Below, one piece after another: positions 1 through 55,139 of a stretch of 64,000 bases of DNA. Numbering within the stretch: position 1 is the stretch's first letter; the number at the start of each line of letters is the position of its first letter. Below the pieces are notes generated by a model, which saw only the letters and a program-made list of their open reading frames with translations, was not told the DNA's origin and ran no database searches. The position numbers and the translations under genes are program-made. Source of the stretch: an uncultured bacterium (GTDB taxonomy: Bacteria; Babelota; Babeliae; Babelales; RVW-14); contig CAVXAT010000004.1 in assembly GCA_963759805.1 (NCBI GenBank), positions 59,483 to 123,482 of the forward strand, given 5' to 3'.

Positions 1-625
1 TTGGAATACCTGTTGTTCCCGATGTGTAAAGTAGTAAGCAAAGCTCGTCGGTTTCAAGTCGTTCTACTTTAAAGTTTGCAAGTTGTTCAGGTACAGACGA
101 GTCATGTATAGATGAGCTAAAATCAATATCTTGATCAGTAAATATTGGTGGTAGCTTGTCTATGTAATTTTGTGTAACCAGATCTTCCATGGTGCTTTTC
201 AATAAACTTGAGCAAATTATGGCTATTGGTTCAGAGTCCTTAATTATGTAAGAAAGTTCCTTGGCATGAAGAAATATGTTAACCGGAACGGCAATTGCAC
301 CTGTCTGCCAAACTGCAAAATATGTGATATAAAAAGCAATTGAATTTTCGGAAAAAATCAGGACTCTATCTCGGGGTTTAATTCCCGATGCTTTAAGTTT
401 TTGGCTAAAAAGAATAGATCTGAAATAAAATTCTGTATAAGTAATAGATTGATTTTGGTGTATGAATGCAATGTTATCCGGATATTTTTCATAGGCAATT
501 TTTAATAACTCGCCGGCATAGGCCAGGTCACCATTTTTAGTAAAATCACTTAGTATTTTATAAAAAATTGAGTTTTCAATATCGCTATGATTTAAATTAC
601 TTTCCCCAAAAAAACTGTTACTCAT
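1..625 (-). CDS. AMP-dependent synthetase/ligase (acyl-CoA-synthetase-like), N-terminal part; continues beyond window edge
   Basis: Own minus-strand translation from ATG 625..623: MSNSFFGESN...ITYTEFYFRS...AVWQTGAIAVPVN...LLYTSGTTGIP. The YTSGTTGxPK AMP-binding signature is reached at position 1. Absent from the ORF track because it is open-ended. Confidence 0.75.
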   Translation of the reverse strand, partial: MSNSFFGESNLNHSDIENSIFYKILSDFTKNGDLAYAGELLKIAYEKYPDNIAFIHQNQSITYTEFYFRSILFSQKLKASGIKPRDRVLIFSENSIAFYITYFAVWQTGAIAVPVNIFLHAKELSYIIKDSEPIAIICSSLLKSTMEDLVTQNYIDKLPPIFTDQDIDFSSSIHDSSVPEQLANFKVERLETDELCLLLYTSGTTGIP

Positions 626-9894: not shown

Positions 9895-10503
9895 ATGATA
9901 AGTTATTTATCCGGTAAAATAAAAGATGTTTCGGAAAAAACCGTTACATTGTTGGTTAATGACATTGGTTTTTTGTTATATGTCCCTCAGGCCGGATCAT
10001 TGCATAAAGATAGTGCTGCAGAATTTTTTACGTACCTGCATTGGAATCCGGAGAACGGTCCCAGTTTTTATGGATTTCAAACAGATCTTGATCGTAAAGT
10101 TTTTTTAATGATAATAGACTGTCCCAAAATTGGTCCTTCAATTGCGTTAAGCGTTTTATCCCAAATGAGTGCTAGCGAATTTTTGAATATTGTTAGTTCA
10201 CAAAACGAAAAAATGCTGAGCAGCGTCAATGGAATTGGTGCAAAAAAAGCTGAACAGATCATTGTTACATTAAAACACAAGGTTACAAAAATGTTGGCCT
10301 CAGGTCAGATTTCGGCTAGTGAGAGCCAACAGGAATTTGTGCATTGGCAAAATGTTTCAGAGGTTTTGGCATCCCTTGGGTATTCTAAGCAAGAGACGTC
10401 CCAGGCGTTGCAACATCTGACCCAAAAATATACCGGTGAAAATATTTCGCTGGACCATCTTATTCGATCTGCTCTTACGTATCTTACTTCAAATAAAGTA
10501 TAA
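9895..10503 (+). CDS. ruvA: Holliday junction DNA helicase subunit RuvA
   Basis: MISYLSGKIKD.. N-terminus and the helix-hairpin-helix motif VNGIGAKKAEQII. About 200 aa. Confidence 0.85.
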   Translation: MISYLSGKIKDVSEKTVTLLVNDIGFLLYVPQAGSLHKDSAAEFFTYLHWNPENGPSFYGFQTDLDRKVFLMIIDCPKIGPSIALSVLSQMSASEFLNIVSSQNEKMLSSVNGIGAKKAEQIIVTLKHKVTKMLASGQISASESQQEFVHWQNVSEVLASLGYSKQETSQALQHLTQKYTGENISLDHLIRSALTYLTSNKV

Positions 10504-10547
10504 AAATCATGTTACTGATACCATTCTGCAAAATTAATGAACCATGC

Positions 10548-10651
10548 TTGCCCGCTCGTGGTGAGTGTTTTTTGCAGGCCGCACCCTTCGATACGCCTCG
10601 CGGCGCTCGGCACTCAGGGCGAGCGGCCAAAAAAAATGTATCGAACCATGC
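10548..10651. repeat. GC-rich modular repeat, copy C (intergenic or 5' of the pseudopilin gene)
   Basis: A GC-rich island in AT-rich DNA. ctcgTGGTgagtg (10555-10567) and tgtatcgaACCAt (10637-10649) enclose T6, a reversed copy of the 37051-37104 module, and A8. Flanked by the 9-nt direct repeat gaaccatgc (10539-10547 and 10643-10651). Confidence 0.7.
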
Positions 10652-10667
10652 GGGCATAAAATTTACT

Positions 10668-11249: not shown

Positions 11250-14213
11250 TTGCATGGACTTTTAATGATTAAACAGTTTTTTAGATTGCTAAGTGCAATT
11301 TTTGTGGGATTAATCCTTTCGATTTGGATTATCCAAAATAATACAGAAGTTGAGACAGCAATTGCAAAAAAAATAATAGCCATATTAGAAAAAGAATGGA
11401 GTGTGAAGATTGATACGAAGTCTTCACGAGTTAATCTTTTCACTTGTTCGTTATATCTGAATAATGGTCATGTAAAGTACCTAAAAAAAGATAATTGTCA
11501 TTGGGCATTTGATCAGTGCAAAATTCATGTTCAGCCTCTAGCCTTTTTTCGTAAGAAGAAAGTCAATCTGGATCTTAAATTTGATAATGTTATTATAAAC
11601 TCCGGATTGACCGGTAGTACCCCTGATATTACTGAGCATATATCAAAGATGTTTTCTGGGGAGTCTTACGATTTAAATATTGCCGTAAAATCCGTTTGTA
11701 TAAATAATTTAGATTTAACAATTTTAAATCTGCCGCACACCTATCGTGCCCAGGTTGAAGGTTCTTTTTTAATACAAAAAATTAGACATGCGAAAAAAGA
11801 TAATTTGCCAAATTCTTGGCAGGGTGATCTTTTAATCAAGAATGCACAGTTTAGTATTGACGATAAAGTTTTTATTAAGCAGTTTTCAACGTCCGGAAAT
11901 ATTTATTATAGTAGAGTGGCCTCAGCATGGTTATCCAAAGTCGATAGTGTCATAAAGTCTTTAATCCCAACACCGGCTCAAAGTTACAGTATAAATTGCG
12001 TTTGGAATAACGATAAAAAATATTTAACAGTTAAAAACCCCGCCCTGGACCTTAATTTGGACGTATCATATCTTGGGGATAAGATTCTTGGTGATAAAAT
12101 AAAAGTTTGTGGGATTTTTCCGGCAGAGCTTGCATTGCAAGTGGCTGGATTTTTTGGCCTAGGAGTTACGGACTCTGGCGCGTCACCCAAGGGTGATGGT
12201 TCGACAAGCTCACCACGAGCGCGCCAACCTAATGGCGCTCGTCCTGCTGTGCCCGGCGTAGCCACGAAGGGCGAAGCCTGGGAGCCTGTCGAAGGATGCG
12301 AATTTCAGGAGGGAGCAGGAGTCACAGGTAAGTGTCAGCTAGATTGTGAGTGGTTATTAAATGATTCAAGACTTGATCCAAAGAGCAGTATAATTATTGA
12401 CGACTTAAAGATAAGAGATCTTAAATTGGGTAAAGTTATTTTAAAACTCAGAGAAAGCAGCAATGAAAAATTAGCAGCAACAATTGATTTTTTATATGAT
12501 CAGGATTTGCAAGCGTTGGGATTATTGAAGTGGGATTGGGCCAAATCAATGGGTAAAATAAAAGTGATGAATAAGTTACCCATTAAATTTCTCAAAGAAA
12601 CATCAAAGCGGTTGGGATTTGGTGGATATGAGATAGGCCCCAAAAATTTCTTTGTTAGCTCAGAGTTTGATAAATATTTTAATTTAAACGGGGATTACAG
12701 CCTTAATATTGCCGATCATTCTGCCAGCAAAACTTTTAAGTATGATGGAAAATTCAAGATCGAGAATAATGAACTAAAAATTAATGGGGCAACACAAAAA
12801 GGTGAGTACGAGATTAATTCTAAATTTTTCCCAAGGCCATCTATTTTAAAATGGGTTTATACCGTTAATGATAAAAAATTAATTGATTTGCAGTGTTGTG
12901 ATACACAAACTAACATTTTACATGGCAATATTAACTTTGCATTAATAAGATCCTTTTTAACGCAAAGCGCAAAGCATCTGGTTTTGGGTCGTGATTGTAT
13001 ATTTAATTTGGCTGTTGATCAGAACGATTTTTTCCATCTTCATGGTAATGCCAAGCTTGCAAGTGGTAAATTTTACATTCCGGAAAGTAGAAATCTAATT
13101 GAAAAATTTCAAACGGATTTTGAAATTAATATTCCATTGCGCAGGATTATTCTTAACAATTCACAGATTGGATTTTTTAAGGGCGAAATCTCAAGCCCTA
13201 AAATTATTGTGCAGTTGGATGAGAATAATTTACTTAGCAATCTACACATACCCCTAAAGATTAAAGATTTACTGCTTAATTGGAAAAATGATCTGCTCGC
13301 AATAGTTTACGGAAACGTTCTTATCAAGAAAAATTTGCAAGGAAATTACAAGGCATTGGCCAATTTGATTGTAAAAAAATCGATTCTGCGGGAAAATATT
13401 CTGTCGTTACCTGAAAATAAATCATTTTCTAGTCCCCTGGGCATATCTTTCTTGCAAAGCAATGATTTTGATTTTGATATCAGGCTTTCAAGTGAGCAAC
13501 CGATAAAGGCCAAAACCCCTTCACTTGAAACAAGCGCATCTATAAATTTGCGAATTTTATATCAAAAAAATAAAAATGTTATGAGAATTCCTCAACTAAC
13601 CGGATCTATTAAGCTTGATAGCGGTCATATTAAATTTTTGCAGACAAAATTATATTTTGAGTATGGTAAAATTCAATTCATATCAAACCAGATGAATGAT
13701 CCGATTATTGACTTGATAGCTCGTAATAGAATTAACAAGTATCAGATTACCCTGCAGGCTACAGGATCGTTACAAAAGCCAATAATTCTGCTTGAGTCAA
13801 ATCCCGAATTGACAGAAGAGCAGATATTGGGGCTTCTCTTATCAGGGTCTGAAGCCGCAAAACTTCAAACCGATCTGTTTGCGATGCTGGAGCAGAATTT
13901 GCACGATATGATTCTTGGTAATAAGACAATCTCTCCCGGTGCGACGAGTTTTTTCCAAAAGCTTGCCAAGCCATTTAAATATATTCAAATTACTCCGGAT
14001 TTCACAAATCAATCTGCAAGAGGTGGAATAAAGGGGACGGTGTCTGCTAATCTTACTGATCAGGTAAAAGCTCAAATTCAGAAAAACTTTAATTTACCAG
14101 GTGATTTTAGTGCTCAGATCGAATATCAGGTCGCTGATGATGTAAGTCTTAAGGGGAGCGTTGATCAGCGAGGGGAGCTTGGGGCAGAGGTAGAACTAAG
14201 GCTTAAACTTTGA
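11250..14213 (+). CDS. tamB: TamB/AsmA-like translocation and assembly module protein
   Basis: N-terminal TM helix in a 987-aa protein. The C-terminus has a DUF490-like pattern (ITLQATGSLQKPIILLESNPELTEEQILGLLLSGS...VELRLKL). Carries an in-frame GC-rich insert at about 12165-12325. Confidence 0.65.
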   Translation: MHGLLMIKQFFRLLSAIFVGLILSIWIIQNNTEVETAIAKKIIAILEKEWSVKIDTKSSRVNLFTCSLYLNNGHVKYLKKDNCHWAFDQCKIHVQPLAFFRKKKVNLDLKFDNVIINSGLTGSTPDITEHISKMFSGESYDLNIAVKSVCINNLDLTILNLPHTYRAQVEGSFLIQKIRHAKKDNLPNSWQGDLLIKNAQFSIDDKVFIKQFSTSGNIYYSRVASAWLSKVDSVIKSLIPTPAQSYSINCVWNNDKKYLTVKNPALDLNLDVSYLGDKILGDKIKVCGIFPAELALQVAGFFGLGVTDSGASPKGDGSTSSPRARQPNGARPAVPGVATKGEAWEPVEGCEFQEGAGVTGKCQLDCEWLLNDSRLDPKSSIIIDDLKIRDLKLGKVILKLRESSNEKLAATIDFLYDQDLQALGLLKWDWAKSMGKIKVMNKLPIKFLKETSKRLGFGGYEIGPKNFFVSSEFDKYFNLNGDYSLNIADHSASKTFKYDGKFKIENNELKINGATQKGEYEINSKFFPRPSILKWVYTVNDKKLIDLQCCDTQTNILHGNINFALIRSFLTQSAKHLVLGRDCIFNLAVDQNDFFHLHGNAKLASGKFYIPESRNLIEKFQTDFEINIPLRRIILNNSQIGFFKGEISSPKIIVQLDENNLLSNLHIPLKIKDLLLNWKNDLLAIVYGNVLIKKNLQGNYKALANLIVKKSILRENILSLPENKSFSSPLGISFLQSNDFDFDIRLSSEQPIKAKTPSLETSASINLRILYQKNKNVMRIPQLTGSIKLDSGHIKFLQTKLYFEYGKIQFISNQMNDPIIDLIARNRINKYQITLQATGSLQKPIILLESNPELTEEQILGLLLSGSEAAKLQTDLFAMLEQNLHDMILGNKTISPGATSFFQKLAKPFKYIQITPDFTNQSARGGIKGTVSANLTDQVKAQIQKNFNLPGDFSAQIEYQVADDVSLKGSVDQRGELGAEVELRLKL
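12165..12325. repeat. GC-rich modular repeat, copy A (in-frame inside tamB)
   Basis: 12195-12225 is identical over 31 nt to 42578-42608. gcccggcgtagc, agcctggg and ctggcgcg are shared with the other copies. Outer boundaries are approximate. Confidence 0.75.
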
Positions 14214-21900: not shown

Positions 21901-22728
21901 TCCAACTTACCGGACCTGTGTATGAGGCACCCGTTGTACCAAGATTTGTCTGCACTACCGGTGAAGAAAAGTTATTAGCAGCTGAGTAAATTTGTAAGTT
22001 CGATGTTGATACCGTTAAAGATAAAGGTATATTTACTTTTCCACCCGCCGCCAAATACTGCCCATCAGGACTCCATGAAACACCAGATGCCGTCACCGAA
22101 AAGCCGACTGTTGCTAACGTTGACGTCGTCGTTCCAGAGAATAGATACACTGCCAAGTTATTTGCCTGTGGGCTCGTTCTTGTCTGACCCGCCACCGCCA
22201 ACTTTCTTCCGTCAGGACTCCAATGCAACTTATCAATTTCCCTGAATGCATTTGCAATACCGGTTCCAAGTGTAAGAATTGCGCTTGTACCTGTTGCCCT
22301 GAATGATGTCGCACTTGTCATTGTAACGTTATTACCAAGCAGCAACTGCCCTTTGGTCAGACGCATTCCTGTCAGCGTTGTTTTCAACGCCGTTCCGTCC
22401 AGTGTCAGCTTTGACGTGGCATCGCCCATTATCAACAGATCTTTTGCCAAAAGTCCGGTCGTACCGCTTGTAGAAGGTTCAAAGTAAAAGGTTGTCTTTG
22501 GGTTAAATTTAAGATTTGCTCCTGACATGATATAACTTGGAACAGTTGAGCGGTAAATAAATGAGCTTGTTCCGGTGAAAGTAACATCGTTGTAAGCAAA
22601 CAACTCTCCCTGATTAAAGTAAAAATCATTCACGAAATTCATTCTTGCATTATCAAGAACAAGTTTGCTTCTGCTTGTCGCAAGTTGTATCGGTGGATTA
22701 TTTGCAAAATTCTTACTGTTACTAATCA
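15959..22728 (-). CDS. giant modular surface protein, C-terminal about 2254 codons (severed from its N-terminus by an IS)
   Basis: Three 7-bladed propellers built from a 45-aa (V)SWSPDGRFIAV.. repeat (PD40/YVTN-like). They alternate with beta-helix-like segments (NWNIPANTIVHV.NN..LDGNGNT..IGANSEIFVDD..TLTLRNVV...NPAI.L.SNRS.LVLDN). The GTG start at 22729 in the ORF track is created at the IS junction. Confidence 0.8.
17698..18102. repeat. three near-identical tandem 135-bp units (45-aa propeller blades) inside the giant gene
   Basis: caacagcaataaaacgacc recurs at 17698, 17833, 17968 and 18103 (period 135). The units differ at only a few positions, and more diverged units flank them. Confidence 0.85.
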
Positions 22729-23894
22729 CAGGACTTCCTCAAAATAACAAACTGCCTGATCTAGTCTGATCTACAAAAAAAATGTACTCTCTCAGAAGGG
22801 TTTGATCGTACAAATCAAAATCTGAGGAGAGTACAATGCTTTATTCAAGCACAGTTCTAAAATATCCAGTCTTAACATTGTTGTCTAGAGGCAAGAGAAG
22901 CTTCGAAAATATGGGATTACTAATTCAGCGAAGTGGTGACACTGTAAAAAGGTTGCTACATCCAGCAGCGCACAGCTTCAATGTATCAAGAAGCATTTGC
23001 CAATCTATGTTTGCAAAAAATGAAATTTTATGTGTAGGCATTGATGATACCTTGTTGCGAAAAATTTATTCGAGATTTATGCAGGGTGCTGGAATGTTCT
23101 TTGATACGAAAATTGGTCGCAGTATCATGGCTTACAAGTTGGTGATTGGCATAATCACAGATGGTAAATTTGCAATCCCAATCGATTGTGCGTACATTTT
23201 TGCAAAAGAAATTCTCGATTCAATCGACGAAAAATTTCCAACAAAAGATGAAATTGCAAAATCATTTGTAAAAACAGCCATAAAACTTTTCCCAGACAAG
23301 AAAATAATTGTGGTTGTTGATGGACTTTACACATCAGTCGAGTTTGTACGATGGTGCAAGCTCGAAAACATCAAACTGGAGGCTCGAATGCATAGCAATC
23401 GCGTTGTTGAATACGATGGCGAGCGAATTAAAATCAAAGATCTTTTGAAGAAAAATGGATTGCGGCCCTTGGGCCGCCAGATGGCTCGTACAATATCTGT
23501 CGCTTGGCATTCAATTGATCTAGAGCTTACAATCGTGCGTCGTTTTGACAAAAAAGGCAGAGAATCGATTGTCTTTCAAGTGGCAACATATAAAGCTTTG
23601 CCTCGTGAACATGTTGCAAACTATAAAAAACGATGGAAAGTTGAAGAGCTGAACAGAACCACAAAACAAGAAATCGGGTTGCAAGAATGTTTTTCTAGAT
23701 CGCTTGAAACACAGCACAATCATGTAGCGTCTGTGCTTTTGGCTTATGCGTTTGCCCAGCTGGAGCGCAAATTTTCTAGACTTGATAACGTAGAACAAGC
23801 GCTCAGACGGTTTGAGACGAAAACTGTGAACTTTTTAATTGATAGATTTTCTAGATTTTCAAAGGGCTTTCAGCACTTTGATGCGTGAGTCCTG
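22729..23894 (+). mobile_element. IS element (IS4/IS5-superfamily DDE transposase), 1166 bp, 6-bp target duplication
   Basis: Ends caggacttcctc.. (22729) and ..gagtcctg (23894) form imperfect inverted repeats; the first 7 nt are identical. TAATCA is duplicated at 22723-22728 and 23895-23900. Confidence 0.8.
22836..23888 (+). CDS. DDE transposase (IS4/IS5 superfamily)
   Basis: GIDDT and VVVDGLY acidic motifs, plus YKKRWKVEELNRTTK, which fits the Y-2-R-3-E-6-K signature. RBS gaggag lies upstream. Confidence 0.8.
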   Translation: MLYSSTVLKYPVLTLLSRGKRSFENMGLLIQRSGDTVKRLLHPAAHSFNVSRSICQSMFAKNEILCVGIDDTLLRKIYSRFMQGAGMFFDTKIGRSIMAYKLVIGIITDGKFAIPIDCAYIFAKEILDSIDEKFPTKDEIAKSFVKTAIKLFPDKKIIVVVDGLYTSVEFVRWCKLENIKLEARMHSNRVVEYDGERIKIKDLLKKNGLRPLGRQMARTISVAWHSIDLELTIVRRFDKKGRESIVFQVATYKALPREHVANYKKRWKVEELNRTTKQEIGLQECFSRSLETQHNHVASVLLAYAFAQLERKFSRLDNVEQALRRFETKTVNFLIDRFSRFSKGFQHFDA

Positions 23895-24395: not shown

Positions 24396-26517
24396 TTAAC
24401 TTACATTGTCGTAATTTATAATTCCATCAACTACTGCATTTGTTCCTGCGTACATACCAATATTCAAATCATAATTTGATCCTAACGCCGAGTTGCCAAA
24501 AACAATTGAGTTGGTCAGGGCTTGGATTTGCGTTTCATAGCTCCAGTGCAATGCCTGTACCTGCAACTCCTCAAATGATGGTGAATTGGCAACATTACCG
24601 GCAATAGCCAAAAAATTGTTATCTGGACTGAATGCAATACCACGAGCATAAGTTGAAGTAAAGTAAAATGTGCCAATTGAGGAAAGTGTATTCCTCACAA
24701 GTTGACAAACAGTAGCGTTATATGTCGGCGTTGTTTGATCTTGTCCGCAAAATGTCACGTAACGACCGGTTTTATCCCAGGCACAAGCATATCCCTGCGC
24801 ACCGGATGCAGCTGTTGTAAGGGTAGCAACACTGTACTAATGCACTACCGGTAAAATAATGCACCCAACCCATAGTTTGTGTCCCCGCAGTTGTTCCAGT
24901 TGCCAAAAATCTTCCATCCGGACTCCAAACAGTATCAGAAGCACTGGTAATAGTGTAACTATTAAGCAGAGGCAAAGACTTTCCCGTAAATTTGTATATC
25001 GAAAGATTATTCGCAGGGTTAGAACATGCAGCAATAGTTTGCCCATCAGGATTCCAAGATGCACCATAGCCATCGCCTCCCAAAGATGCTGATATAACAA
25101 AATTAAGAGAAATTCCTGTAAATGCATAAATAGCTAATTGATTTGAGCTCCAATTAGAAGCAACAGCAAGATAGCGTCCATCAGGACTCCAACGAGCAGT
25201 CCAGGCTGTGATACCAGAACCCGATACAAAAGCTATCTGTGCAAGAGTTGTTCCGTTAAAAGAATAAACTCTTACATAGGTATTCGATGAATCCAGTCCG
25301 GCACATGCTAAATATCTTCCATCCGGGCTCCAACTAACTCCAAGGCAAGAGTTTGCCCATATCGCAGTTTGAGTAATAGGGGTAAATGATGTTCCATTAA
25401 ACCCTAGAACTACAAATCTGACAGAGCCGGCAGGCCCACTATCAACACCAAAGGCTATGTATCTTCCCGAAGGATGCCAATCAACACAAGCGGCTCTTGA
25501 TGATGCCTGCCAGTTAGTAACGGTAGTAGAAAAGTCAGCAAGTCGAAATGCTGCGGCACTTGTCATTGAAACTTTGTTGTCAAATAACAACTGCCCCTTG
25601 GTTAAACGAAATCCGGTATATGTTGATTTAAGGGTGCAACTGTTTAAATAAAGCTGACTTGTCGGATCGGACATAAACAATAAATCTTTTGCCAAAAGTG
25701 AAGGGGTCCCGGTTGTGCTAGGATAAAAATCAAGTGTTGTTCCAACATCAAAGTACAATTTTGCCCCTGATGTTATAAAACTTGGTTGGCATGAGCGATA
25801 AAAGAATGCTGACGTACCGGTTACAGCAACATCATTATGAACAAACATGCTGCCTTGATTAAAATAAAAATCGTTGGGAAGATCAAGCTCAGCATTATCA
25901 AGACAAAGTTGGCTTTTAGAAGATGCACACTGGATGGCAGGACTCCCCGGACTGTTCAATGTCCCTTGCACTATCAGATTTTTCAGCGTCAGCGTAGCAC
26001 CGGTATCAACAAAAAGCTGTGCTCTGTTACCCAGTAATAATTTATGTCCATTCCCATCAATAACAATTCTGTCGCCTATGTGAATAACCTGTCCGGCAGG
26101 AATCGTTAAGTCTCCTTTTAAAATAAGCGCTCTGTCGTAACCATAAATGTTTCCGCCGGAAGAAAATGTAGCTCCATTATCCAGGGTTAAATCTGATTGA
26201 AGAAAAATCGTATTTGTTTGACGCAAATCAATGGCACCGGAGACGGAAAGACATGTGTCCATAAAAACACAGGAGCCATGAGTACGGCCAGGTCCTGTGC
26301 TTACAACAGTAACCGTAAATCCATTATCCATTCTGACCACACCAGAAGCAAATTGCTGATCATAAAAAACGTTATTAAAAGGTTGAAATGCGTAATAAGG
26401 CGGCGTAGTACCCGAACCGCCCAGACTTCCGGCAGATAAACTAAAAAAATACATTGCTGTAAAAATCACGACTCTTGTTAAAAAAAATAGCATCATTTTT
26501 TTAGATACAAACTTCAT
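24396..26517 (-). pseudogene. single-module paralog of the giant protein (signal peptide, beta-helix, 7-blade propeller), one frameshift
   Basis: ORFs 24772..26517 and 24396..24758. The downstream frame is open back to the TAG at about 24838-24840 and encodes ..SVATLTTAASGAQGYACAWDKTGRYVTFCG, a continuation of the blade repeat. The shift is at about 24830-24840. It ends ..DGIINYDNVS, like the module ends of the giant protein. Confidence 0.7.
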
Positions 26518-27065: not shown

Positions 27066-27725
27066 TTACTCAAACAAGCTTTTTTTGTTCAACTTTTTCC
27101 AATCTTTATCAAACGTTTCCAATCCTTGGGTTGATAGTGGATGTTTAATTGCTTTTTCAATTACCTCAGCTGGAACTGTGATAATGTCTACGCCTGCATA
27201 AGCCAGCCTTTGCCATTGATATACATTGCGAATTGACGCGGCCAAAATTTCTGATTTGAATCCATAGTTTTGTTTTATTGTCACAATATTTTCGACAAAA
27301 TCTACTCCGTCTTTGCCTATATCATCCCAACGCCCTACGAAGGGAGAGATAAATGTTACGCCTAATTTTGCAACCAACAGCGCCTGAATCTCTGTAAAAA
27401 CAAGTGTGACGTTAATTTTTACTCCGTCGGAAACAAGTTTGTGAATTACAGAAAAATATTCCGGCATGCATGGGATTTTTACGACAACGTTTTTAGCCAA
27501 ATTTGAAATCTCTTTTGCTTGTTTGTAAACTGCATCCGGGTTATTTTCTACGACTTCTATGCTTACCGGACCCTTAACCATGCTGCAAATGTCGAGTAAA
27601 ACCTTTTTGGTGTTTGAATCCTCTTTGCTTAAAAGTGTTGGATTTGTTGTTACTCCGTCAATAAGCCCGGTTTCAGTCCATTTTTTAATTTGTTCGCGAT
27701 TGGCAGTATCAAGAAATATTTTCAT
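27066..27725 (-). CDS. tal: short-type transaldolase / fructose-6-phosphate aldolase
   Basis: MKIFLDTANREQIKKW..GLIDGVTTNPTLL, 219 aa, with the Schiff-base Lys context VVVKIP. Confidence 0.85.
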   Translation of the reverse strand: MKIFLDTANREQIKKWTETGLIDGVTTNPTLLSKEDSNTKKVLLDICSMVKGPVSIEVVENNPDAVYKQAKEISNLAKNVVVKIPCMPEYFSVIHKLVSDGVKINVTLVFTEIQALLVAKLGVTFISPFVGRWDDIGKDGVDFVENIVTIKQNYGFKSEILAASIRNVYQWQRLAYAGVDIITVPAEVIEKAIKHPLSTQGLETFDKDWKKLNKKSLFE

Positions 27726-29712: not shown

Positions 29713-29819
29713 GTCATGCTGAACTAGTTTCAGCATCCATGGATGAATTTATTCCAAATTTCTGCAATGGGGCAATAGGAACAACTAATCCATGGATCCT
29801 GAAATAAATTCAGGATGAC
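29713..29819. repeat. AT-rich palindromic element, copy 1 (107 bp)
   Basis: gtcatgctgaactagtttcagcatccatgga ... tccatggatcctgaaataaattcaggatgac. About 31-nt inverted arms, each itself a hairpin, around a 45-nt loop. Near-identical to 37250-37349. Confidence 0.85.
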
Positions 29820-30076
29820 AAATCTGTGATCGTAAGATATTTTTGACACGCGTGGCCCCTTTTATAAATTATCGAGTTCACGTTAATTAAATAAAGTTTG
29901 CAAAAATTTTGAAGTCCAAGACAAGTATTTAGCAAAAAATTGCGCAAATTGCGATCTGGAGCGAATTTTACTATTCCGTTTTATGGGCATTCCCATAACT
30001 AAAATATTTCGTGTTAATTTTTTTCCAAACAGTTAAAATGTTTTATGAAAACTTGTGATAAGTTGAAAGGAGTCAA

Positions 30077-36898: not shown

Positions 36899-36978
36899 GA
36901 GGCATCCTTTGTTAACATCAGTTCGATAATTATAAAAAACAGCTGTGAATGCTAAAAGTGGCTTCCGACCAGAGATGT

Positions 36979-37349
36979 GTCATCCTGAATTTATTTCACA
37001 ACTGTCCGAAGTGCTTTTAAAGCCATCTGAACGCTTGTTGCGCTCACTCAAGGGCGCTCGCCCTGAGTGCCGAGCCTTGCGAGGCGTATCGAAGGGTACG
37101 CCCTAAAAACTTATTCTATCCGCCGTTGCGCTCTATCCTTCGATACGATTTGCTAAGCAACAAGTTGCTTGCAAATCACTCAGGACGAGTGCGATGAAAA
37201 CCATACGCATCCGACGATTCAAAGCTACGTTTAACACTTCGGACAGTTATGAATTTATTTCAGGATCCATGGATAGATTTATTCCAAATTTCTGCAATTG
37301 AGCAATAGGAGCAACTAATCCATGGATCCTGAAATAAATTCAGGATGAC
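36979..37349. repeat. AT-rich palindromic element, copy 2, interrupted by a nested GC-rich element
   Basis: The left-arm start gtcatcctgaatttatttca (36979-36998) and the remainder tgaatttatttcaggatccatgga...tccatggatcctgaaataaattcaggatgac (37250-37349) reconstitute a copy of 29713-29819. Confidence 0.85.
36999..37249. mobile_element. GC-rich modular repeat, copy D (251 bp, MITE-like: 14-bp terminal inverted repeats, 13-bp flanking direct repeat)
   Basis: aactgtccgaagtg (37000-37013) is the reverse complement of cacttcggacagtt (37235-37248). Flanked by tgaatttatttca at 36986-36998 and 37250-37262. The interior holds two modules shared with copies B and C. Confidence 0.75.
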
Positions 37350-41686: not shown

Positions 41687-43687
41687 ATGCTAAGTAAAGA
41701 ACAGATTGATGCGAAACATCTTTTATACCTAAAACACCAGGCTCTTAATTTAAGAATAGATTCTATTCGGGCAACCACGCAAAGTAAATCAGGACATCCG
41801 ACCTCCTGCCTTTCTATAGCTGATATTGTTGCAACAATTTTTTTTAATTTTTTGCGTTACGATTTAAAAAATCCAAAACATCCAAATAACGATCGGGTAA
41901 TTCTTTCCAAGGGGCATGCAATTCCGGTGATATATGCTGCATGGAAGCAGTTTGGAGTTATCAGCGACGAAGAGCTGATGTCCCTGCGTAAGTTTACTTC
42001 CCCTCTTGAGGGACATCCAACGCCGACATTTGCATACAATGAAGCTGCAACAGGGTCGTTGGGCCAAGGCCTATCTATTGGCCTGGGAATGGCGCTGGCT
42101 GCGCGCCTAGATAAATTGGATTTCACAACCTATGTTTTGATGGGTGATGGAGAAATAGCAGAGGGTTCGATCTGGGAAGCCGCAGAACTGGCTGCTTTTT
42201 ATAAAGTTGATAATTTAATTGGATTTGTTGATTGTAATCGATTAGGGCAGTCTGGACCAACATTGCATGAGCATCAAGTTCAAAATTATGTGAATAAATT
42301 CCAAGCTTTTGGCTGGAAAACATTATCTATCGACGGACATGATATTTCGCAGATAGTTGATGCAATAAATGTTGCAAAAAGTACTAAGAATCAGCCAACG
42401 ATGATTATTGCAAAAACAGTTAAGGGGTATGGCCTTGAGGGAATTGAGAATGAGGCAAATTGGCACGGCAAGCCTCTTACTCAAGAAGCTGCAGAAAAAG
42501 CAATTTCACAGCTTAAAATGACATTTAATAGACTTCTTCCGAAGCCTGGCGCGTCCGTCTACGCCAAGGCTACGACGGATGGTTCGACAAGCTCACCACG
42601 AGCGCGCCTACTTAATCCCGCTCATCCTGAGTGTTTTGCGAAGCTTGCTGAGCAAAATGTATCGAAGGATTGTCCTGCCTGCCCGCCCGGCGTAGCTACC
42701 TCGAGCGGAGCCTGGGTGCCTGCCGACCTGCTTCAAGATCCAAACAAAAAATATTTTGAAAAGAATGCGTTACTCTCAACCCGCAAAGCCTATGGATACG
42801 CCTTGCAATCACTCGGGCAAGACAATCCTGACATTGTTGCCCTTGATGCTGATGTTAGCAATTCGACTTTTTCAGATATTTTTGCCAAAACCTTTCCTGA
42901 AAGATTTATTCAGTGTTTTATTGCTGAACAGAACATGATTGGGGTTTGCGCCGGGTTGCAATCTCGTGGCAAAATTCCTTTCGCTGCCACATTTGCAGCA
43001 TTTTTAACGCGTGCTTTTGATCAGTTGCGTATGGCAGGAATTGGGCGCAATGCCTTGAGGGTCTGCGGTTCGCATTGTGGCGTTTCAATCGGGCAAGACG
43101 GGCCATCGCAGATGGGGCTTGAAGATATAGCAATGTTCAATACGATCCCAAATTCCATAATCTTGTATCCATCGGATGCTGTTTGCACTTATAAACTTAT
43201 GAATTTGTGTGCTACTTACAACGATGGCATTTCTTACTTGCGTACGACTCGTGCAGACACGCCTGTCATTTACGATCTGGACGAGAAGTTTGAAATTGGC
43301 AAATGTAAAGTCCTGCGACAGAGCGAGAAAGACGTTTGTTGCCTTGTTGCTGCAGGGATAACTTTGCACGAAGCTCTTAAAGCATACGAGCAACTAAAAT
43401 CCCAAGGCATTTCAGTTGCTGTAATTGATCTTTACTCCGTCAAGCCCATGGATATCCAAACTATACTTAAAGTTGCCCAAAAATCTGGCAATAAAATTAT
43501 TTCAGTCGAGGATCATTATATTAACGGTGGAATTGGGCAGATGCTTGCAGCCCAAATTATTAATTCTGGAATTAAACAGAAAATGCTTGGAGTTACAAAA
43601 ATTTCCAGGTCCGGAACGCCTCAAGAACTTATGCATGACGCTGGAATAGACGCTGACAGTATTATCAGAGCTGTAAAAGAATTTTAG
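41687..43687 (+). CDS. tkt: transketolase (fused N- and C-terminal halves) carrying an in-frame GC-rich repeat at the inter-domain linker
   Basis: SGHPTSCLS, GSLGQGLSIGLGMA and MGDGEIAEGSIWEA (TPP-binding) in the N-half. STRKAYGYAL...FIAEQNM..GQDGPSQMGLEDIA in the C-half. Confidence 0.9.
   Translation: MLSKEQIDAKHLLYLKHQALNLRIDSIRATTQSKSGHPTSCLSIADIVATIFFNFLRYDLKNPKHPNNDRVILSKGHAIPVIYAAWKQFGVISDEELMSLRKFTSPLEGHPTPTFAYNEAATGSLGQGLSIGLGMALAARLDKLDFTTYVLMGDGEIAEGSIWEAAELAAFYKVDNLIGFVDCNRLGQSGPTLHEHQVQNYVNKFQAFGWKTLSIDGHDISQIVDAINVAKSTKNQPTMIIAKTVKGYGLEGIENEANWHGKPLTQEAAEKAISQLKMTFNRLLPKPGASVYAKATTDGSTSSPRARLLNPAHPECFAKLAEQNVSKDCPACPPGVATSSGAWVPADLLQDPNKKYFEKNALLSTRKAYGYALQSLGQDNPDIVALDADVSNSTFSDIFAKTFPERFIQCFIAEQNMIGVCAGLQSRGKIPFAATFAAFLTRAFDQLRMAGIGRNALRVCGSHCGVSIGQDGPSQMGLEDIAMFNTIPNSIILYPSDAVCTYKLMNLCATYNDGISYLRTTRADTPVIYDLDEKFEIGKCKVLRQSEKDVCCLVAAGITLHEALKAYEQLKSQGISVAVIDLYSVKPMDIQTILKVAQKSGNKIISVEDHYINGGIGQMLAAQIINSGIKQKMLGVTKISRSGTPQELMHDAGIDADSIIRAVKEF
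42536..42730. repeat. GC-rich modular repeat, copy B (in-frame inside tkt)
   Basis: About 63% G+C by hand count over 42541-42600, against AT-rich flanks. Shares a 31-nt identity with 12195-12225. Contains the module ctcaTCCTgagtg..gtatcgaAGGAt (42621-42670). Confidence 0.8.
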
Positions 43688-53714: not shown

Positions 53715-53799
53715 GGGGAGATTCCCGAGTGGTTAAAGGGGACGGACTGTAAATCCGTTGGCTATGCCTTCGTAGGTTCGAATCCTACTCTCCCCACCA
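53715..53799 (+). tRNA. tRNA-Tyr (GTA), CCA encoded
   Basis: Hand-folded. Acceptor ggggaga/tctcccc, anticodon stem acgga/tccgt with loop ctGTAaa, long variable arm, T-arm gtagg-ttcgaat-cctac, then A-CCA. Confidence 0.9.
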
Positions 53800-53925
53800 T
53801 CCTTCGCCCTCGTTTTGCTCGTGGCTACGGATGGCAAGCCAGTCTTCGATGCTATGCAGCTTTCGCCGTCGCATAAAGCTATGGCGGGCACGGCGTCTGG
53901 CGCCCTACATGACTTCCGCGATAGT
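53800..53925. repeat. GC-rich repeat, copy F, abutting the tRNA-Tyr 3' end (possibly the outer left end of the adjacent IS200-like element)
   Basis: A GC-rich island starts at the base after the CCA. ggctacggatgg resembles ggctacgacggatgg of copy B, and ctggcgcc is related to the shared ctggcgcg. Confidence 0.55.
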
Positions 53926-53929
53926 TTTT

Positions 53930-54490
53930 TAGTAAAAGAGCTGAAACCCCCAGGTCTTTCAAGCCTGGGGATGAAAGCTCACCGCTGGCGCGAAGCAAAA
54001 TTAGTTTACTAAATTTTGCGAAGAGCCACTGGAAATGGCATACTATGATACATGGAAAAGTATTGGACAGGTGCGCATACGAAACACAGGCTAATGTATC
54101 ATATAGTATGGATTCCCAAGTATAGAAAAAGAGTATTGAAGGGAAAGGTCGCGGAGCGACTGAAGGAGTTGTTTTTACAGTGCGCAGACGTTAATAAATG
54201 GGAAGTTAAAGAGCTAAGCATTCAAGAAGATCACGTGCATATGCTAATTCAGTTAAAACAAAATATAAGTGTAAGCTATGCAGTTCAGTTGTTAAAGGGT
54301 GGAAGCAGCAAAGTAATTAGGGAAGAGTTTCCGGAGCTTGAAGAGTTCTTATGGGGTGACAGCTTCTGGTCAGATGGATATTTTGCTGAGACGGTTGGTG
54401 AGGTAAATGTGAATAAAGTTAGAGAGTACATAAAAAATCAATAAGGTAGAAGCACCGCGCTTTTAAGCCGGTGCGATTCACTTAATAAAT
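53930..54490 (+). mobile_element. IS200/IS605-family element (tnpA only); boundaries approximate, may extend left to 53800
   Basis: Y1 transposase ORF flanked by subterminal hairpins: ccccagg..cctgggg (53948-53970) upstream and gcaccg..cggtgc (about 54452-54478) downstream. No tnpB. Confidence 0.6.
54052..54444 (+). CDS. tnpA: IS200-type Y1 (HUH) transposase TnpA
   Basis: YHIVWIPKYRKRVL, HVHMLI (HUH), LKGGSSKVIREEFPEL, FWSDGYFAETVG (catalytic Tyr) and REYIKNQ. Confidence 0.9.
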   Translation: MEKYWTGAHTKHRLMYHIVWIPKYRKRVLKGKVAERLKELFLQCADVNKWEVKELSIQEDHVHMLIQLKQNISVSYAVQLLKGGSSKVIREEFPELEEFLWGDSFWSDGYFAETVGEVNVNKVREYIKNQ

Positions 54491-54570
54491 TAATAATTGA
54501 TATGCTATGAAATTCGGATATACTGTTTTTTACCGTACTTTAATAGTAAAATGTTATTGAAATTTAGTGT

Positions 54571-54647
54571 GCGGGAGTAGCTCAATTGGCTAGAGCGACA
54601 GCCTTCCAAGCTGTAGGTTGCGGGTTCGAGACCCGTTTCCCGCTCCA
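54571..54647 (+). tRNA. tRNA-Gly (TCC), CCA encoded
   Basis: Hand-folded. Acceptor gcgggag/ttcccgc, anticodon stem acagc/gctgt with loop ctTCCaa, T-arm gcggg-ttcgaga-cccgt. Confidence 0.85.
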
Positions 54648-54655
54648 GAAGCAGT

Positions 54656-54731
54656 GCTGGCATAGCTCAGTTGGTAGAGCAGCTGATTTGTAATCAGCAG
54701 GTCGCTGGTTCAAGTCCAGTTGCCAGCTCCA
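54656..54731 (+). tRNA. tRNA-Thr (TGT), CCA encoded
   Basis: Hand-folded. Acceptor gctggca/tgccagc, anticodon stem gctga/tcagc with loop ttTGTaa, T-loop ttcaagt. Confidence 0.85.
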
Positions 54732-54749
54732 ATTCAAGCGAGTGTGTTA

Positions 54750-54824
<75 letters not shown>

Positions 54825-54895
54825 TCCAGGACTTACAAAATAATGTAGTAGAGTTTTGAATTTTTTGGGGTTTATAAATTTAGGATTTTGCAGCC

Positions 54896-55054
54896 ATGGC
54901 AAAAGCTAGAACGATCATTCACTTAGAGTGTAAAGATTGCAAAATGAAAAATTACAGCAAGCATGTTTCAAAAAAAAGAGCATTTGCGAAGCTGGAGTTG
55001 AATAAGTATTGTGAGAAATGCCGAAAGCATTGCGCACATAAGGAAACGAAGTAG
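54896..55054 (+). CDS. rpmG: 50S ribosomal protein L33 (Zn-ribbon type)
   Basis: Own translation (below the ORF-track size cutoff): MAKARTIIHLECKDCKMKNYSKHVSKKRAFAKLELNKYCEKCRKHCAHKETK, 52 aa. Confidence 0.85.
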   Translation: MAKARTIIHLECKDCKMKNYSKHVSKKRAFAKLELNKYCEKCRKHCAHKETK

Positions 55055-55062
55055 AAAGAGTT

Positions 55063-55139
55063 AGGCCAGTAGCTCTAATTGGTAGAGCGGCAGACTCCAA
55101 ATCTGCGGGTTGGGGGTTCGAATCCCTCCTGGCCTGCCA
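55063..55139 (+). tRNA. tRNA-Trp (CCA), CCA end encoded
   Basis: Hand-folded. Acceptor aggccag/ctggcct, anticodon stem gcaga/tctgc with loop ctCCAaa, T-loop ttcgaat. Confidence 0.85.

What the first reader, a model, noticed from the sequence alone, without database searches (positions are those of the whole stretch)
42536..42730. GC-rich repeat inserted in-frame exactly at the inter-domain linker of transketolase
The tkt ORF stays open through a GC-rich block of about 190 nt (about 63% G+C by hand count over its first 60 nt). The block encodes ..PKPGASVYAKATTDGSTSSPRARLLNPAHPECFAKLAEQNVSKDCPACPPGVATSSGAWVPADLLQ... It lies between the end of the TPP/PP domain (..WHGKPLTQEAAEKAISQLK) and the start of the Pyr domain (..LSTRKAYGYAL). 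That is the junction where split-type transketolases are two polypeptides, so it is a structurally permissive site. An essential central-metabolism enzyme thus carries about 60 extra residues derived from a mobile repeat.
Basis: partly seen in the sequence, partly recalled or inferred. Interest (0 to 1): 0.7.

Follow-up and report, generated by a model that had tools for sequence, protein, structure and literature searches.

The report
Mobile palindromic repeat within transketolase linker
In a Dependentiae (TM6) bacterium, the flexible linker between two transketolase domains has been overwritten in-frame by a decayed, nested copy of a small GC-rich palindromic mobile repeat, the same thing long known as "selfish DNA in genes" in Rickettsia, here in a new phylum and a new repeat family.

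Summary
Window 42527-42721 (195 nt, 58.5% G+C against 41.5% for the rest of tkt) is the most GC-rich stretch of the 64-kb window and stays in frame in a human-type transketolase. The closest orthologs (625-626 aa) lack it. In the window, 65 repeat-derived codons replace 29 native linker codons, a net gain of 36 aa, not about 60.

The block belongs to a repeat family I could define. The element is 129 nt (43 codons), folds end to end, has 15-17-nt inverted ends flanked by TA, and has one stop-free frame. I found 16 copies sharing an exact 31-mer, all in AT-rich Babeliales-like DNA. Nine lie in that one frame inside unrelated genes (tkt, TamB, TrmD-like, AspRS, a glycosyltransferase and others). 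The tkt copy keeps the left end, lacks the right end, and carries three further nested hairpin modules.

AlphaFold2 predicts an intact transketolase fold with a low-confidence loop at the insert. 21 of 24 internal rare inserts among 120 Dependentiae transketolases fall in this same linker.

This is a Rickettsia-RPE-like "protein-coding palindrome" in a new phylum. Translation of the insert and its mobilising enzyme are untested. The core hairpin (loop TTCGACARGCTCA) occurs with an identical 22-mer in at least seven phyla.

The parts
41687..43687 (+). Transketolase gene, human-type single chain, 666 aa; host of the insert
   Evidence: ORF. Pfam N, Pyr and C domains. Human TK E = 3e-184. AF2 mean pLDDT 90.8 and TM 0.95-0.96 to human TK. 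All columns invariant across 120 homologs are kept.
42527..42721 (+). Whole repeat-derived segment (195 nt, 65 codons, aa 281-345, 58.5% G+C) replacing 29 native linker codons
   Evidence: DNA and protein alignment with the insert-free orthologs L001, L002 and L003. Module map. nhmmer E = 2.5e-18.
42527..42545 (+). Left end of the host element: AA-TA-GACTTCTTCCGAAGC (terminal inverted repeat, 2 mismatches to consensus), read as NRLLPKP
   Evidence: Consensus from other copies. TIR search hit at 42529-42545. TA-flanked TIR list.
42546..42582 (+). CTGGCGCGTC ... GATGG arm of the host element. The small hairpin GTCACCnnnnGGTGA is replaced by a nested palindromic module at 42556-42577 (CGTCTACGCCAAGGCTACGACG, read as VYAKATT).
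   Evidence: Alignment of 16 copies; the tkt copy has 12 extra nt here. The module recurs in L120 (92% over 26 nt) and next to the 31-mer in L130.
42578..42608 (+). 31-mer GATGGTTCGACAAGCTCACCACGAGCGCGCC, identical in all 16 copies of the family. It contains the hairpin-unit loop TTCGACAAGCTCA (42583-42595) and the 22-mer found across phyla (42583-42604).
42617..42670 (+). Extra hairpin unit in opposite orientation (CCCGCTCATCCTGAG ... TCGAAGGAT). Its loop holds a nested palindrome at 42632-42661 (TGTTTTGC...GCAAAATGTA). Read as AHPECFAKLAEQNVSKD.
   Evidence: 94% identical copy over 53 nt in L130. Stand-alone intergenic relative at window 37135-37198. Same peptide motif in the tkt linker of P0091.
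42671..42727 (+). Second arm of the host element (TGTCCTG ... TGCCTGCCGAC), with a nested GC-rich module at 42678-42716. The canonical right end (GGATGCGAGTTTCAGAAGAGATC-TA) is absent. The junction with native ADL codons is at about 42722.
   Evidence: 81% over 42 nt to 12251-12292. The same nested module sits at the same place in L136 and in the window's 12175-12312 copy. Module map.
12166..12312 (+). Second copy of the same composite element, in the same reading frame, inside the TamB-like gene 11250..14213 (45 extra aa, absent from all orthologs)
   Evidence: DNA fold z = -2.26; E = 8.6e-29
37135..37198 (-). Intergenic stand-alone relative of the extra hairpin unit with nested palindrome, in the leuS-downstream spacer full of such modules (36980-37345)
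10521..10660 (+). Intergenic composite of the same hairpin superfamily (CCCTTCGA[nested]CTCAGGGCGAGCGG), between ruvA-like 9895..10503 and a prepilin-like gene; 86% complementary to 37052-37109

Best explanation
The block is a decayed, 3'-truncated copy of a small non-autonomous palindromic mobile element that is dispersed in Babeliales/Dependentiae genomes.

The intact element is 129 nt (43 codons). It folds end to end into one long hairpin. It has 15-17-nt inverted ends (GAyyTCTTCTGAAAC) flanked by TA. It is built around two inverted copies of a hairpin unit whose 13-nt loop is TTCGACARGCTCA. It has exactly one stop-free reading frame, encoding (N)RLLLKPGASP.GDGSTSSPRAR.L.GARPEPVEGCEFQKRSN.

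Shown: a copy lies in the tkt linker in that frame. Three more short palindromic modules are nested in it, each keeping the frame. The 29 native linker codons are gone. The result is a 65-residue segment that AlphaFold2 predicts as a mostly low-confidence surface loop between two intact domains.

Inferred: the segment is transcribed and translated as part of the enzyme. It has no function of its own. It persists because this linker, which is the place where split transketolases are two chains, tolerates length and sequence change. Selection only removes copies that break the frame.

Inferred with less confidence: the element is moved in trans by a transposase not present in the data. The TA flanks suggest an IS630/mariner-like enzyme. 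The nesting of modules into hairpin loops suggests a step that acts on single-stranded hairpins.
For: Absent from the closest orthologs: P0006, P0007, P0009 and P0010 are 625-626 aa, and syntenic loci L001-L003 have 29 linker codons where the window has 65.

Family membership: nhmmer with a model built from six other copies hits tkt 42528-42643 at E = 2.5e-18 and 12166-12312 at E = 8.6e-29. 16 copies share an exact 31-mer: window x2, L099, L129-L141. All lie in DNA of 33-41% G+C.

Element design: 129 nt; only frame +0 is free of stops; DNA hairpin of -31 to -33 kcal/mol pairing end to end. TIRs are TA-flanked at 9 of 11 ends.

In-frame spread: all 9 forward copies that lie in long ORFs use frame 0. 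Hosts include TamB, TrmD plus an RNA methyltransferase, AspRS, a GT1 glycosyltransferase and tkt. Reverse copies lie in TilS, aminopeptidase P and a PgeF-like gene.

Second lineage-specific insertion in the same genome: 45 aa in TamB, absent from P0122-P0128.

Nested modules recur elsewhere.

Decay: the tkt copy folds no better than shuffles (z = -0.13), against z = -2.26 for the TamB copy.

Tolerance: AF2 pLDDT 34-59 for aa 291-330 in a model of mean 90.8; TM 0.95-0.96 and rmsd 1.8-2.0 A to human TK. 21 of 24 internal rare inserts in 120 homologs fall at reference positions 287-304. Other lineages carry other repeat-derived peptides there, and one insert is shared by three diverged proteins, P0012, P0014 and P0015.

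No intron family and no intein domain was detected.
Against: There is no direct evidence that the insert stays in the mRNA or the protein.

The frame is intrinsically open in the element, so an open frame alone is weak evidence of selection.

The tkt copy has no right inverted repeat and no recognisable target duplication, and the native linker is missing. So the event was not a simple cut-and-paste insertion, or it was followed by a deletion.

No autonomous partner with matching ends was found. The only transposase in the window (22836-23888, DDE_Tnp_1) has unrelated ends.

No empty site is available for a full-length copy, so TA may belong to the inverted repeat rather than be a duplication.

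There are only two family copies in this 64-kb window.

The sequence comes from one assembly, and the reads were not examined.

Residues 331-345 of the insert are predicted with high confidence (block mean 88), so part of it may have taken over the structural role of the lost native linker.
Confidence: 0.78

Rival explanations
1. The repeat-derived segment has been exapted. It is kept because it gives the enzyme something new, such as a flexible tether, a partner-binding or localisation peptide, or redox-sensitive cysteines (C316, C329, C332).
For: The whole native linker is gone, so the repeat now does the linker's job. Residues 331-345 are modelled with high confidence, and a short helix is predicted at 316-323. 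All three nested modules kept the frame. The linker insert of P0012, P0014 and P0015 has been retained across diverged lineages.
Against: No other transketolase shares this insert; P0001 is a cluster of one. Different lineages carry unrelated repeat peptides at the same place, which fits tolerance better than function. Most of the insert has pLDDT below 50. The same peptide occurs in unrelated enzymes.
Confidence: 0.1
2. The block is removed before the mature enzyme forms, as an intron, an intein or by translational bypass (as with the GC-rich byp elements of Magnusiomyces mitochondria, cited from my own knowledge), so the protein has a shorter linker.
For: The block is GC-rich, structured DNA in an AT-rich gene. 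The element is a hairpin former, as byp elements and mitochondrial GC clusters are. Retention was not tested.
Against: No Rfam intron or other family matched, even at E <= 10 over 42300-42950. No Hint or intein domain was found, and 65 aa is too short for one. Removing exactly 42527-42721 would leave no linker at all between F280 and A346, whereas orthologs need 29 residues there. Frame and stop-freeness are kept through three nested additions. The same element is in frame in at least 9 other genes.
Confidence: 0.05
3. The block is an assembly artefact: a metagenomic contig wrongly joined through a dispersed GC-rich repeat, so the real tkt has a native linker.
For: The sequence comes from a metagenome-type assembly, and repeats are classic misjoin points. 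Reads were not available.
Against: Both flanks are the same tkt gene, in frame, in the syntenic neighbourhood seen in L002, L003 and L007. A misjoin would have to enter and leave the repeat at frame-preserving points within one gene. Independent assemblies show analogous in-frame inserts in other genes and in other tkt lineages.
Confidence: 0.03
4. The block is a lineage-specific expansion of the native linker (slippage or compositional drift) that only resembles the repeats by chance.
For: The linker is variable in length in this protein family, 60-125 aa between the anchor motifs.
Against: There is an exact 31-mer shared with 15 other loci, and a profile E-value of 2.5e-18. The left inverted repeat is recognisable. 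A 53-nt module is 94% identical to L130.
Confidence: 0.01

Closest known systems
Rickettsia palindromic elements (RPE-1 to RPE-10; Ogata et al. 2000 Science 290:347; 2002 Genome Res 12:808, as summarised in PMC10969869, PMC3767692, PMC3733652, PMC6649704)
   Same: Palindromic repeats of 100-150 bp. Many copies sit in frame inside unrelated housekeeping genes without breaking them. The host is an AT-rich, host-dependent bacterium with a reduced genome. Orthologs show recurrent insertion at the same loci. Copies lose their palindromic identity with time.
   Different: Different phylum (Dependentiae, not Rickettsiales). No sequence relation to RPEs was tested or is apparent. The element is strongly GC-rich in an AT-rich genome. 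It has TA-flanked 15-17-nt inverted ends. It is built around a hairpin unit also found in many other phyla. Modules nest inside each other's loops. In tkt the native linker was replaced rather than interrupted.
REP sequences and REPIN doublets mobilised by RAYT transposases (Nunvar 2010 and Bertels & Rainey 2011 from my own knowledge; GTAG/CGTC-tagged REPs, PMC3733652)
   Same: The basic unit is a short GC-rich imperfect palindrome. Two units in inverted orientation form a larger hairpin: 80 of 121 units have an inverted partner within 160 nt. PMC3733652 reports intragenic REPs encoding 20-30 aa in several species.
   Different: No unpaired GTAG tag. The CGTC in the arms lies within stems, and the stems do not match the described 8-9-bp AT-first families. 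No RAYT gene was seen or searched for genome-wide. REP families are usually species-specific, whereas this 22-mer is identical across phyla. The Dependentiae element adds its own terminal inverted repeats.
Bacterial MITEs that make in-frame fusions (Coxiella QMITE1/2, PMC5896051; Correia, ERIC and BOX elements, PMC10969869)
   Same: Small, non-autonomous and TIR-bounded, with occasional in-frame intragenic copies.
   Different: In those families intragenic in-frame copies are the exception. Here 13 of 16 copies lie in ORFs, and the element length (43 codons) and single open frame look suited to coding regions.
GC clusters and byp elements of yeast mitochondria; coding palindromes of Nematomorpha mitochondria (PMC6649704; the former from my own knowledge)
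   Same: GC-rich hairpin elements that invade protein-coding genes of AT-rich genomes.
   Different: Those are organellar. byp elements are skipped by the ribosome. The Nematomorpha repeats are perfect and actively maintained. Here the copies decay and are presumably translated.

Membership tests
RPE-like protein-coding palindromic elements (functional kind) | Dispersed repeat of about 100-150 bp that can fold as one long palindrome | tested here: met
   129-nt consensus copies (L134, L135) pair end to end at -31 to -33 kcal/mol. The TamB copy has z = -2.26. The tkt copy itself no longer folds better than shuffles (z = -0.13).
RPE-like protein-coding palindromic elements (functional kind) | Multiple copies in frame inside unrelated, otherwise intact protein-coding genes, absent from orthologs | tested here: met
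   9 forward copies in frame 0 and 4 reverse copies in ORFs of 16. Hosts identified by Pfam. Empty sites shown for tkt and TamB.
RPE-like protein-coding palindromic elements (functional kind) | The insert is kept in mRNA and protein, and the protein remains functional | not testable with these tools
   Only indirect evidence: the AF2 fold is intact and the invariant residues are kept.
Rickettsia RPE families proper (RPE-1..10) | Sequence similarity to the RPE consensus sequences; occurrence in Rickettsia or Wolbachia | not tested
   No RPE sequences were at hand. The organism is a Babeliales/Dependentiae bacterium, so I do not file it as an RPE family member.
REP/REPIN-RAYT | Short imperfect palindrome units, frequently as inverted doublets | tested here: met
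   Loop TTCGACARGCTCA, with closing pairs 1-3 at least 90% paired and GG/CC versus CC/GG covariation over 262 occurrences. 80 of 121 units have an inverted partner within 160 nt.
REP/REPIN-RAYT | Unpaired GTAG (or CGTC) tetranucleotide tag at one end of the stem-loop | tested here: not met
   No GTAG at the unit ends. The CGTC occurrences lie inside stems, and stem and loop sizes differ from the CGTC-1..4 descriptions.
REP/REPIN-RAYT | A RAYT (IS200/IS605-like Y1 transposase) gene in the genome, flanked by the repeats | not tested
   Only 64 kb of this genome was available. 20 window ORFs scanned with Pfam showed no Y1 transposase.
IS630/Tc1-mariner-type MITE | Terminal inverted repeats and no transposase gene | tested here: met
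   GAyyTCTTCTGAAAC / GTTTCAGAAGAGATC at both ends of L066, L135 and L136, and at one end of others including tkt. The element is 129 nt.
IS630/Tc1-mariner-type MITE | TA target-site duplication | tested here: inconclusive
   TA abuts 9 of 11 inverted-repeat ends. No empty site was available for a full-length copy, so TA may be part of the repeat.
IS630/Tc1-mariner-type MITE | An autonomous element with the same inverted repeats | tested here: not met
   No inverted-repeat pair at IS-like spacing in about 1.2 Mb of fetched loci. The window's DDE transposase has unrelated ends. The search space was small.
Intein | Hint domain of about 130 aa or more with splice-junction residues | tested here: not met
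   The insert is 65 aa, and there is no Hint or intein Pfam hit on the full protein.
Group I / group II intron | Match to the intron covariance models | tested here: not met
   No hit at gathering threshold in the window, nor at E <= 10 in 42300-42950.
Transketolase, human-type single chain | N (TPP), Pyr and C domains in one chain; closest to mammalian TK | tested here: met

The most novel reading that the evidence does not exclude
The hairpin unit at the core of the insert has a 13-nt loop TTCGACARGCTCA closed by covarying GG/CC or CC/GG pairs and a variable stem. It may be an undescribed, very small mobile or selfish unit that has spread horizontally across at least seven bacterial phyla. 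These are Acidobacteriota, Chloroflexota/Dehalococcoidia, Dependentiae, Elusimicrobia, and Alpha-, Beta-, Gamma- and Deltaproteobacteria. It inserts preferentially into the loops of other hairpins, which would explain the nesting seen here. In Dependentiae it has been packaged into a TIR-bounded, 43-codon, single-open-frame element adapted to survive inside genes. If so, the tkt linker is one visible trace of a pan-bacterial element with an unknown enzyme behind it.
Probability: 0.3. Interest if true: 0.7.

Novelty: new member of a known kind. Interest (0 to 1): 0.55.

Why it matters
In-frame palindromic "selfish DNA" in housekeeping genes has been treated as a Rickettsia (and Wolbachia) peculiarity. 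Here an unrelated, GC-rich family shows the same behaviour in Dependentiae, another reduced, host-dependent lineage. This suggests the behaviour recurs in small AT-rich genomes where intergenic space is scarce.

It gives a concrete sequence model for re-annotating Dependentiae proteins, whose odd GC-rich, low-complexity loops (…GDGSTSSPRAR…, …CHPELVSG…, …VRPEPVEG…) are repeat-derived rather than functional motifs.

It offers a natural experiment on which protein sites tolerate 30-65 extra residues.

The cross-phylum identity of the core hairpin raises a testable question about what moves or maintains it.

Tried and rejected
(1) Word-indexed protein search with the 62-aa insert peptide found nothing: one candidate, none scored.

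(2) Exhaustive phmmer of the TamB-copy peptide against 1.84 billion cluster representatives gave only 5 hits. In-frame copies are hidden inside clusters represented by insert-free proteins, so the census had to be done on DNA.

(3) Rfam gave no family for the window, for the insert region, or for five loci with canonical units. A mir-599 hit at 29.9 bits (gathering score 94) is a chance hairpin.

(4) Literature searches by peptide motifs, by DNA strings, and by Dependentiae plus palindromic/MITE terms gave no description of these repeats.

(5) I tested whether the IS4/IS5-like transposase at 22836-23888 is the parent of the element. Its ends are unrelated.

(6) I tested CGTC/GTAG-tagged REP membership. 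The described architecture is not matched.

(7) I considered that 'KP…Y…T' in the insert was surviving native linker. I rejected this once the family consensus showed that NRLLPKPGAS is the element's own left end.

(8) I considered that 'ttcaagatccaaac' after the insert was the element's right end. I rejected this because insert-free orthologs have the same DLSQD(P/Q)N codons.

(9) No target-site duplication could be read at the TamB or tkt junctions.

(10) Relatives' tkt neighbourhoods (about 100 kb, L001-L007) hold no copy of this family, only the CHPE-type hairpin.
Full report
**What is there.** The window (37.9% G+C) comes from a Babeliales/Dependentiae (TM6) bacterium. The best transketolase homologs are named Candidatus Babeliales or Dependentiae by their sources. 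ORF 41687..43687 (+) encodes a 666-aa transketolase of the mammalian single-chain type. Pfam finds Transketolase_N at aa 21-277, Transket_pyr at 363-525 and Transketolase_C at 538-659. Human transketolase matches at E = 3e-184, in two blocks that break between query residues 276 and 352. The two chains of the split transketolase of Carboxydothermus align to residues 11-279 and 363-664. The only other windows that reach 58.5% surround position 12100-12360. The frame is open throughout and the quoted peptide is exact.

**It is an addition relative to orthologs, and it replaced the native linker.** The closest homologs with 77-80% identity (P0006, P0007, P0009, P0010) are 625-626 aa. Their loci L001-L003 are syntenic with the window, with leuS, C11 peptidases, tkt, DUF378 and murA in the same order. 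Between the conserved F280 and the conserved ADL motif they have 29 codons (KEESEFKPSMKYSPAMPTDIKTKKTIFVQ). The window has 65 codons with no detectable similarity to them. The net gain in the linker is therefore 36 aa. The remaining length difference is a 5-aa N-terminal difference and one C-terminal residue.

**It belongs to a definable repeat family.**
- BLAST within the window found a second copy at about 12170-12300: 90% identity over 52 nt and 81% over 42 nt.
- A 31-mer shared by both copies (GATGGTTCGACAAGCTCACCACGAGCGCGCC) occurs in 13 metagenome contigs and in a Babeliales genome, L099. All are AT-rich, 33-41% G+C.
- Aligning these copies gives an intact element of 129 nt: AATA-GACTTCTTCTGAAAC-c-wGGCGCGTCACC-nnnn-GGTGATGG-TTCGACAAGCTCA-CCACGAGCGCGCC-spacer-GGCGCTCGTCC-TGAGCCTGTCGAA-GGATGCGA-GTTTCAGAAGAGATC-TAAT.
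- It pairs end to end as a single long DNA hairpin (-31 to -33 kcal/mol). It is exactly 43 codons long. Five of its six frames contain stop codons.
- The open frame reads (N)RLLLKPGASP.GDGSTSSPRAR.L.GARPEPVEGCEFQKRSN.
- A profile built from six copies, none from the window, hits tkt 42528-42643 at E = 2.5e-18 and 12166-12312 at E = 8.6e-29.
- The inverted ends GAyyTCTTCTGAAAC are flanked by TA at 9 of 11 ends. An intergenic copy with both ends and both canonical hairpins is L066 524-652.

**The family lives inside genes.**
- Of the 16 copies, nine lie in long ORFs in the forward orientation, and all nine use the one open frame.
- Four lie in ORFs in reverse orientation. Two or three are intergenic.
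- Pfam identifies the hosts as unrelated housekeeping proteins: TamB (window), a TrmD/RNA-methyltransferase fusion (L099), aspartyl-tRNA synthetase (L140), a GT1 glycosyltransferase (L133), aminopeptidase P (L137), TilS (L141) and a PgeF-like protein (L129).
- The window's TamB copy adds 45 residues that are missing from all six full-length orthologs, with the native sequence intact on both sides.
- Different lineages carry the element in different genes. For example, the population that supplied L006 has it in AspRS and TilS but not in tkt. That is the signature of mobility.
- Coding density is probably about 90% (my estimate). On that basis 13 of 16 copies in ORFs is about what unselected insertion would give. 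This is unlike ordinary REPs and MITEs, which are purged from genes, and it is the hallmark of the Rickettsia palindromic elements (PMC10969869, PMC3767692, PMC3733652).

**Anatomy of the tkt copy.**
- 42527-42545: the element's left end. It gives NRLLPKP, which I first mistook for native linker.
- 42546-42582: the first arm. Its small hairpin is replaced by a nested palindrome at 42556-42577 (VYAKATT). This module also occurs in L120 and next to the 31-mer in L130.
- 42578-42608: the invariant 31-mer.
- 42617-42670: an additional hairpin unit carrying a nested palindrome at 42632-42661. It is 94% identical over 53 nt to L130 and related to the intergenic copy at 37135-37198.
- 42671-42727: the second arm, with a nested GC-rich module at 42678-42716. 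The same module sits at the same place in the TamB copy and in L136.
- The canonical right end is absent. The sequence runs straight into the native ADL codons at 42722.
- The tkt copy folds no better than shuffled sequence (z = -0.13), while the TamB copy still does (z = -2.26).

So this is an old, truncated and compound copy. Every added module kept the frame, as expected if only frame-preserving variants of this gene survive.

**Consequence for the protein.** AlphaFold2 with 120 homologs gives mean pLDDT 90.8 and pTM 0.91. The ten-residue blocks from 281 to 330 score 67, 41, 34, 46 and 59, and residues 290-325 are almost all below 50. Residues 331-345 are confident. Foldseek superposes the model on human transketolase with target-normalised TM 0.95-0.96 and rmsd 1.8-2.0 A. 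All columns invariant across the 120 homologs are kept in the window's protein. The enzyme therefore looks intact, with a mostly disordered loop between the PP and Pyr domains.

**The linker is a recurrent site.** Among the 120 homologs, 29 rare inserts of at least 7 aa were found. Five are N-terminal. Of the 24 internal ones, 21 lie at reference positions 287-304. Many carry hallmarks of the same hairpin superfamily, by my reading:
- CHPELVSG… in P0005 and P0008
- CHPEFISGSMN in P0012, P0014 and P0015
- VRPEPVEG and QGER in P0023 and P0024
- SPELVEGLAKAG in P0055
- AHPEYFAKQNVSKE in P0091

The DNA of L005-L007 shows a different hairpin inserted near the 3' end of the linker, again with nested modules. 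Because the flanking sequences differ between lineages, I read this clustering as a selection filter (a tolerant site) rather than targeting. Targeting is not excluded.

**How it most likely works.**
- Shown: repeat family membership, absence from orthologs, in-frame state, compound structure, and a predicted disordered loop.
- Inferred: the segment is translated, serves as the linker, and has no function of its own.
- Inferred more weakly: the element is a non-autonomous transposon moved in trans. The TA-flanked inverted repeats suggest an IS630/mariner-type enzyme. The habit of modules to sit in the loops of other hairpins suggests a step on single-stranded hairpin DNA. No matching autonomous element was found in the data, and the only transposase in the window has unrelated ends.

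**Rivals.**
- Removal as an intron, an intein or by bypass is unlikely. There is no covariance-model hit even at E <= 10 and no Hint domain. Removal would also leave no linker at all.
- Misassembly is unlikely, given in-frame continuity within a syntenic gene and analogous inserts in independent assemblies, but reads were not checked.
- Exaptation cannot be excluded for residues 331-345.

**Comparison with what is known.**
- Functionally this is the RPE phenomenon: 100-150-bp palindromes in frame in housekeeping genes, recurrent sites, and decay with time. I do not file it as an RPE family member. The organism is from a different phylum, the element is GC-rich, and no sequence comparison was possible.
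- The basic unit behaves like a REP, and its inverted doublet like a REPIN. The loop TTCGACARGCTCA is conserved, and the closing pairs are at least 90% paired and switch between GG/CC and CC/GG (262 occurrences). 80 of 121 units have an inverted partner within 160 nt.
- However, it lacks the GTAG/CGTC tag architecture, and no RAYT was seen.
- The main Dependentiae genome papers do not mention such repeats. None of the motif strings occurs in the searchable literature.

**A finding beyond the brief.** The hosts include Acidobacteriota, Dehalococcoidia and other Chloroflexota, Dependentiae, Elusimicrobia, and Alpha-, Beta-, Gamma- and Deltaproteobacteria, among them cultured isolates. There are also two hits in IMG/VR contigs. 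No Rfam family covers it. What maintains or spreads an identical hairpin across phyla is unexplained.

**Verdict.** The element is a new family of a known kind. Interest is moderate (0.55). It would be higher if the cross-phylum hairpin proves to be an undescribed mobile unit.

Noticed in passing
It is usually part of a hairpin with a conserved 13-nt loop and covarying closing pairs, often as inverted doublets or short tandem arrays (e.g. L119, period 57 nt). No Rfam family and no literature match.
   Followed up: partly
window 12166-12312 (gene 11250..14213): Second in-frame copy of the same composite element in a TamB-like gene. It adds 45 aa that are absent from all orthologs, and its palindrome is still foldable (z = -2.26).
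   Followed up: yes
window 29788-29812, 36982-37013, 37250-37274, 37318-37342; L005-L007 tkt linkers: A different small hairpin (ATCCTGAAnnnnnTTCAGGATCCATG, read as CHPE[LF][VI]SGSM[ND]) is intergenic around leuS in the window. It is inserted in frame at the same linker position of tkt in two subclades (P0002/3/5/8 and P0012/14/15) but not in lineages between them. This means either repeated insertion at one target or precise loss.
   Followed up: partly
window 10521-10660 and 36997-37200: Intergenic GC-rich composites of the same hairpin superfamily with further nested modules. 10571-10628 and 37052-37109 are 86% complementary to each other.
   Followed up: partly
L066 524-652; inverted-repeat ends in L041, L120, L134, L135, L139 and the window: The element's inverted repeats are abutted by TA at 9 of 11 ends, often within A(T/A)TA...TA(T/A)T. 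This could be a TA target duplication as in IS630/mariner elements. No empty site was available to decide.
   Followed up: partly
window 15959-22729 (-), 24772-26517 (-), 22836-23888 (+): A 2256-aa ORF with 135-nt (45-aa) periodic repeats and a 581-aa paralog with WD40/beta-propeller hits flank an IS4/IS5-like DDE transposase gene.
   Followed up: no
window 29800-29886 and 36912-36998: 87-nt inverted repeat arms (72% complementary) bracket a 7-kb segment that includes leuS and glycosyltransferase-like genes.
   Followed up: no
window 53715-55136: Cluster of five tRNA genes, which accounts for other GC-rich peaks in the window.
   Followed up: no
window 8376-9824, 27066-27725, 41687-43687: A GH1 beta-glucosidase, a transaldolase and the transketolase are all in this window. 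This matches the cellobiose to pentose-phosphate/glycolysis ATP route proposed for TM6 in PMC4776705.
   Followed up: no
P0132 (864 aa): A protein that matches the repeat-encoded peptide in 12 separate stretches; it may be built largely of translated repeat units.
   Followed up: no
P0058 (ref. position 230), P0055 (ref. position 587), P0123 (TamB ortholog): Repeat-like peptides (FDRAQDQGERLEP; FFSCHPEFSSGSNP; KSCPAVNNCGVV) inserted at other surface positions of transketolase or TamB in other lineages.
   Followed up: no
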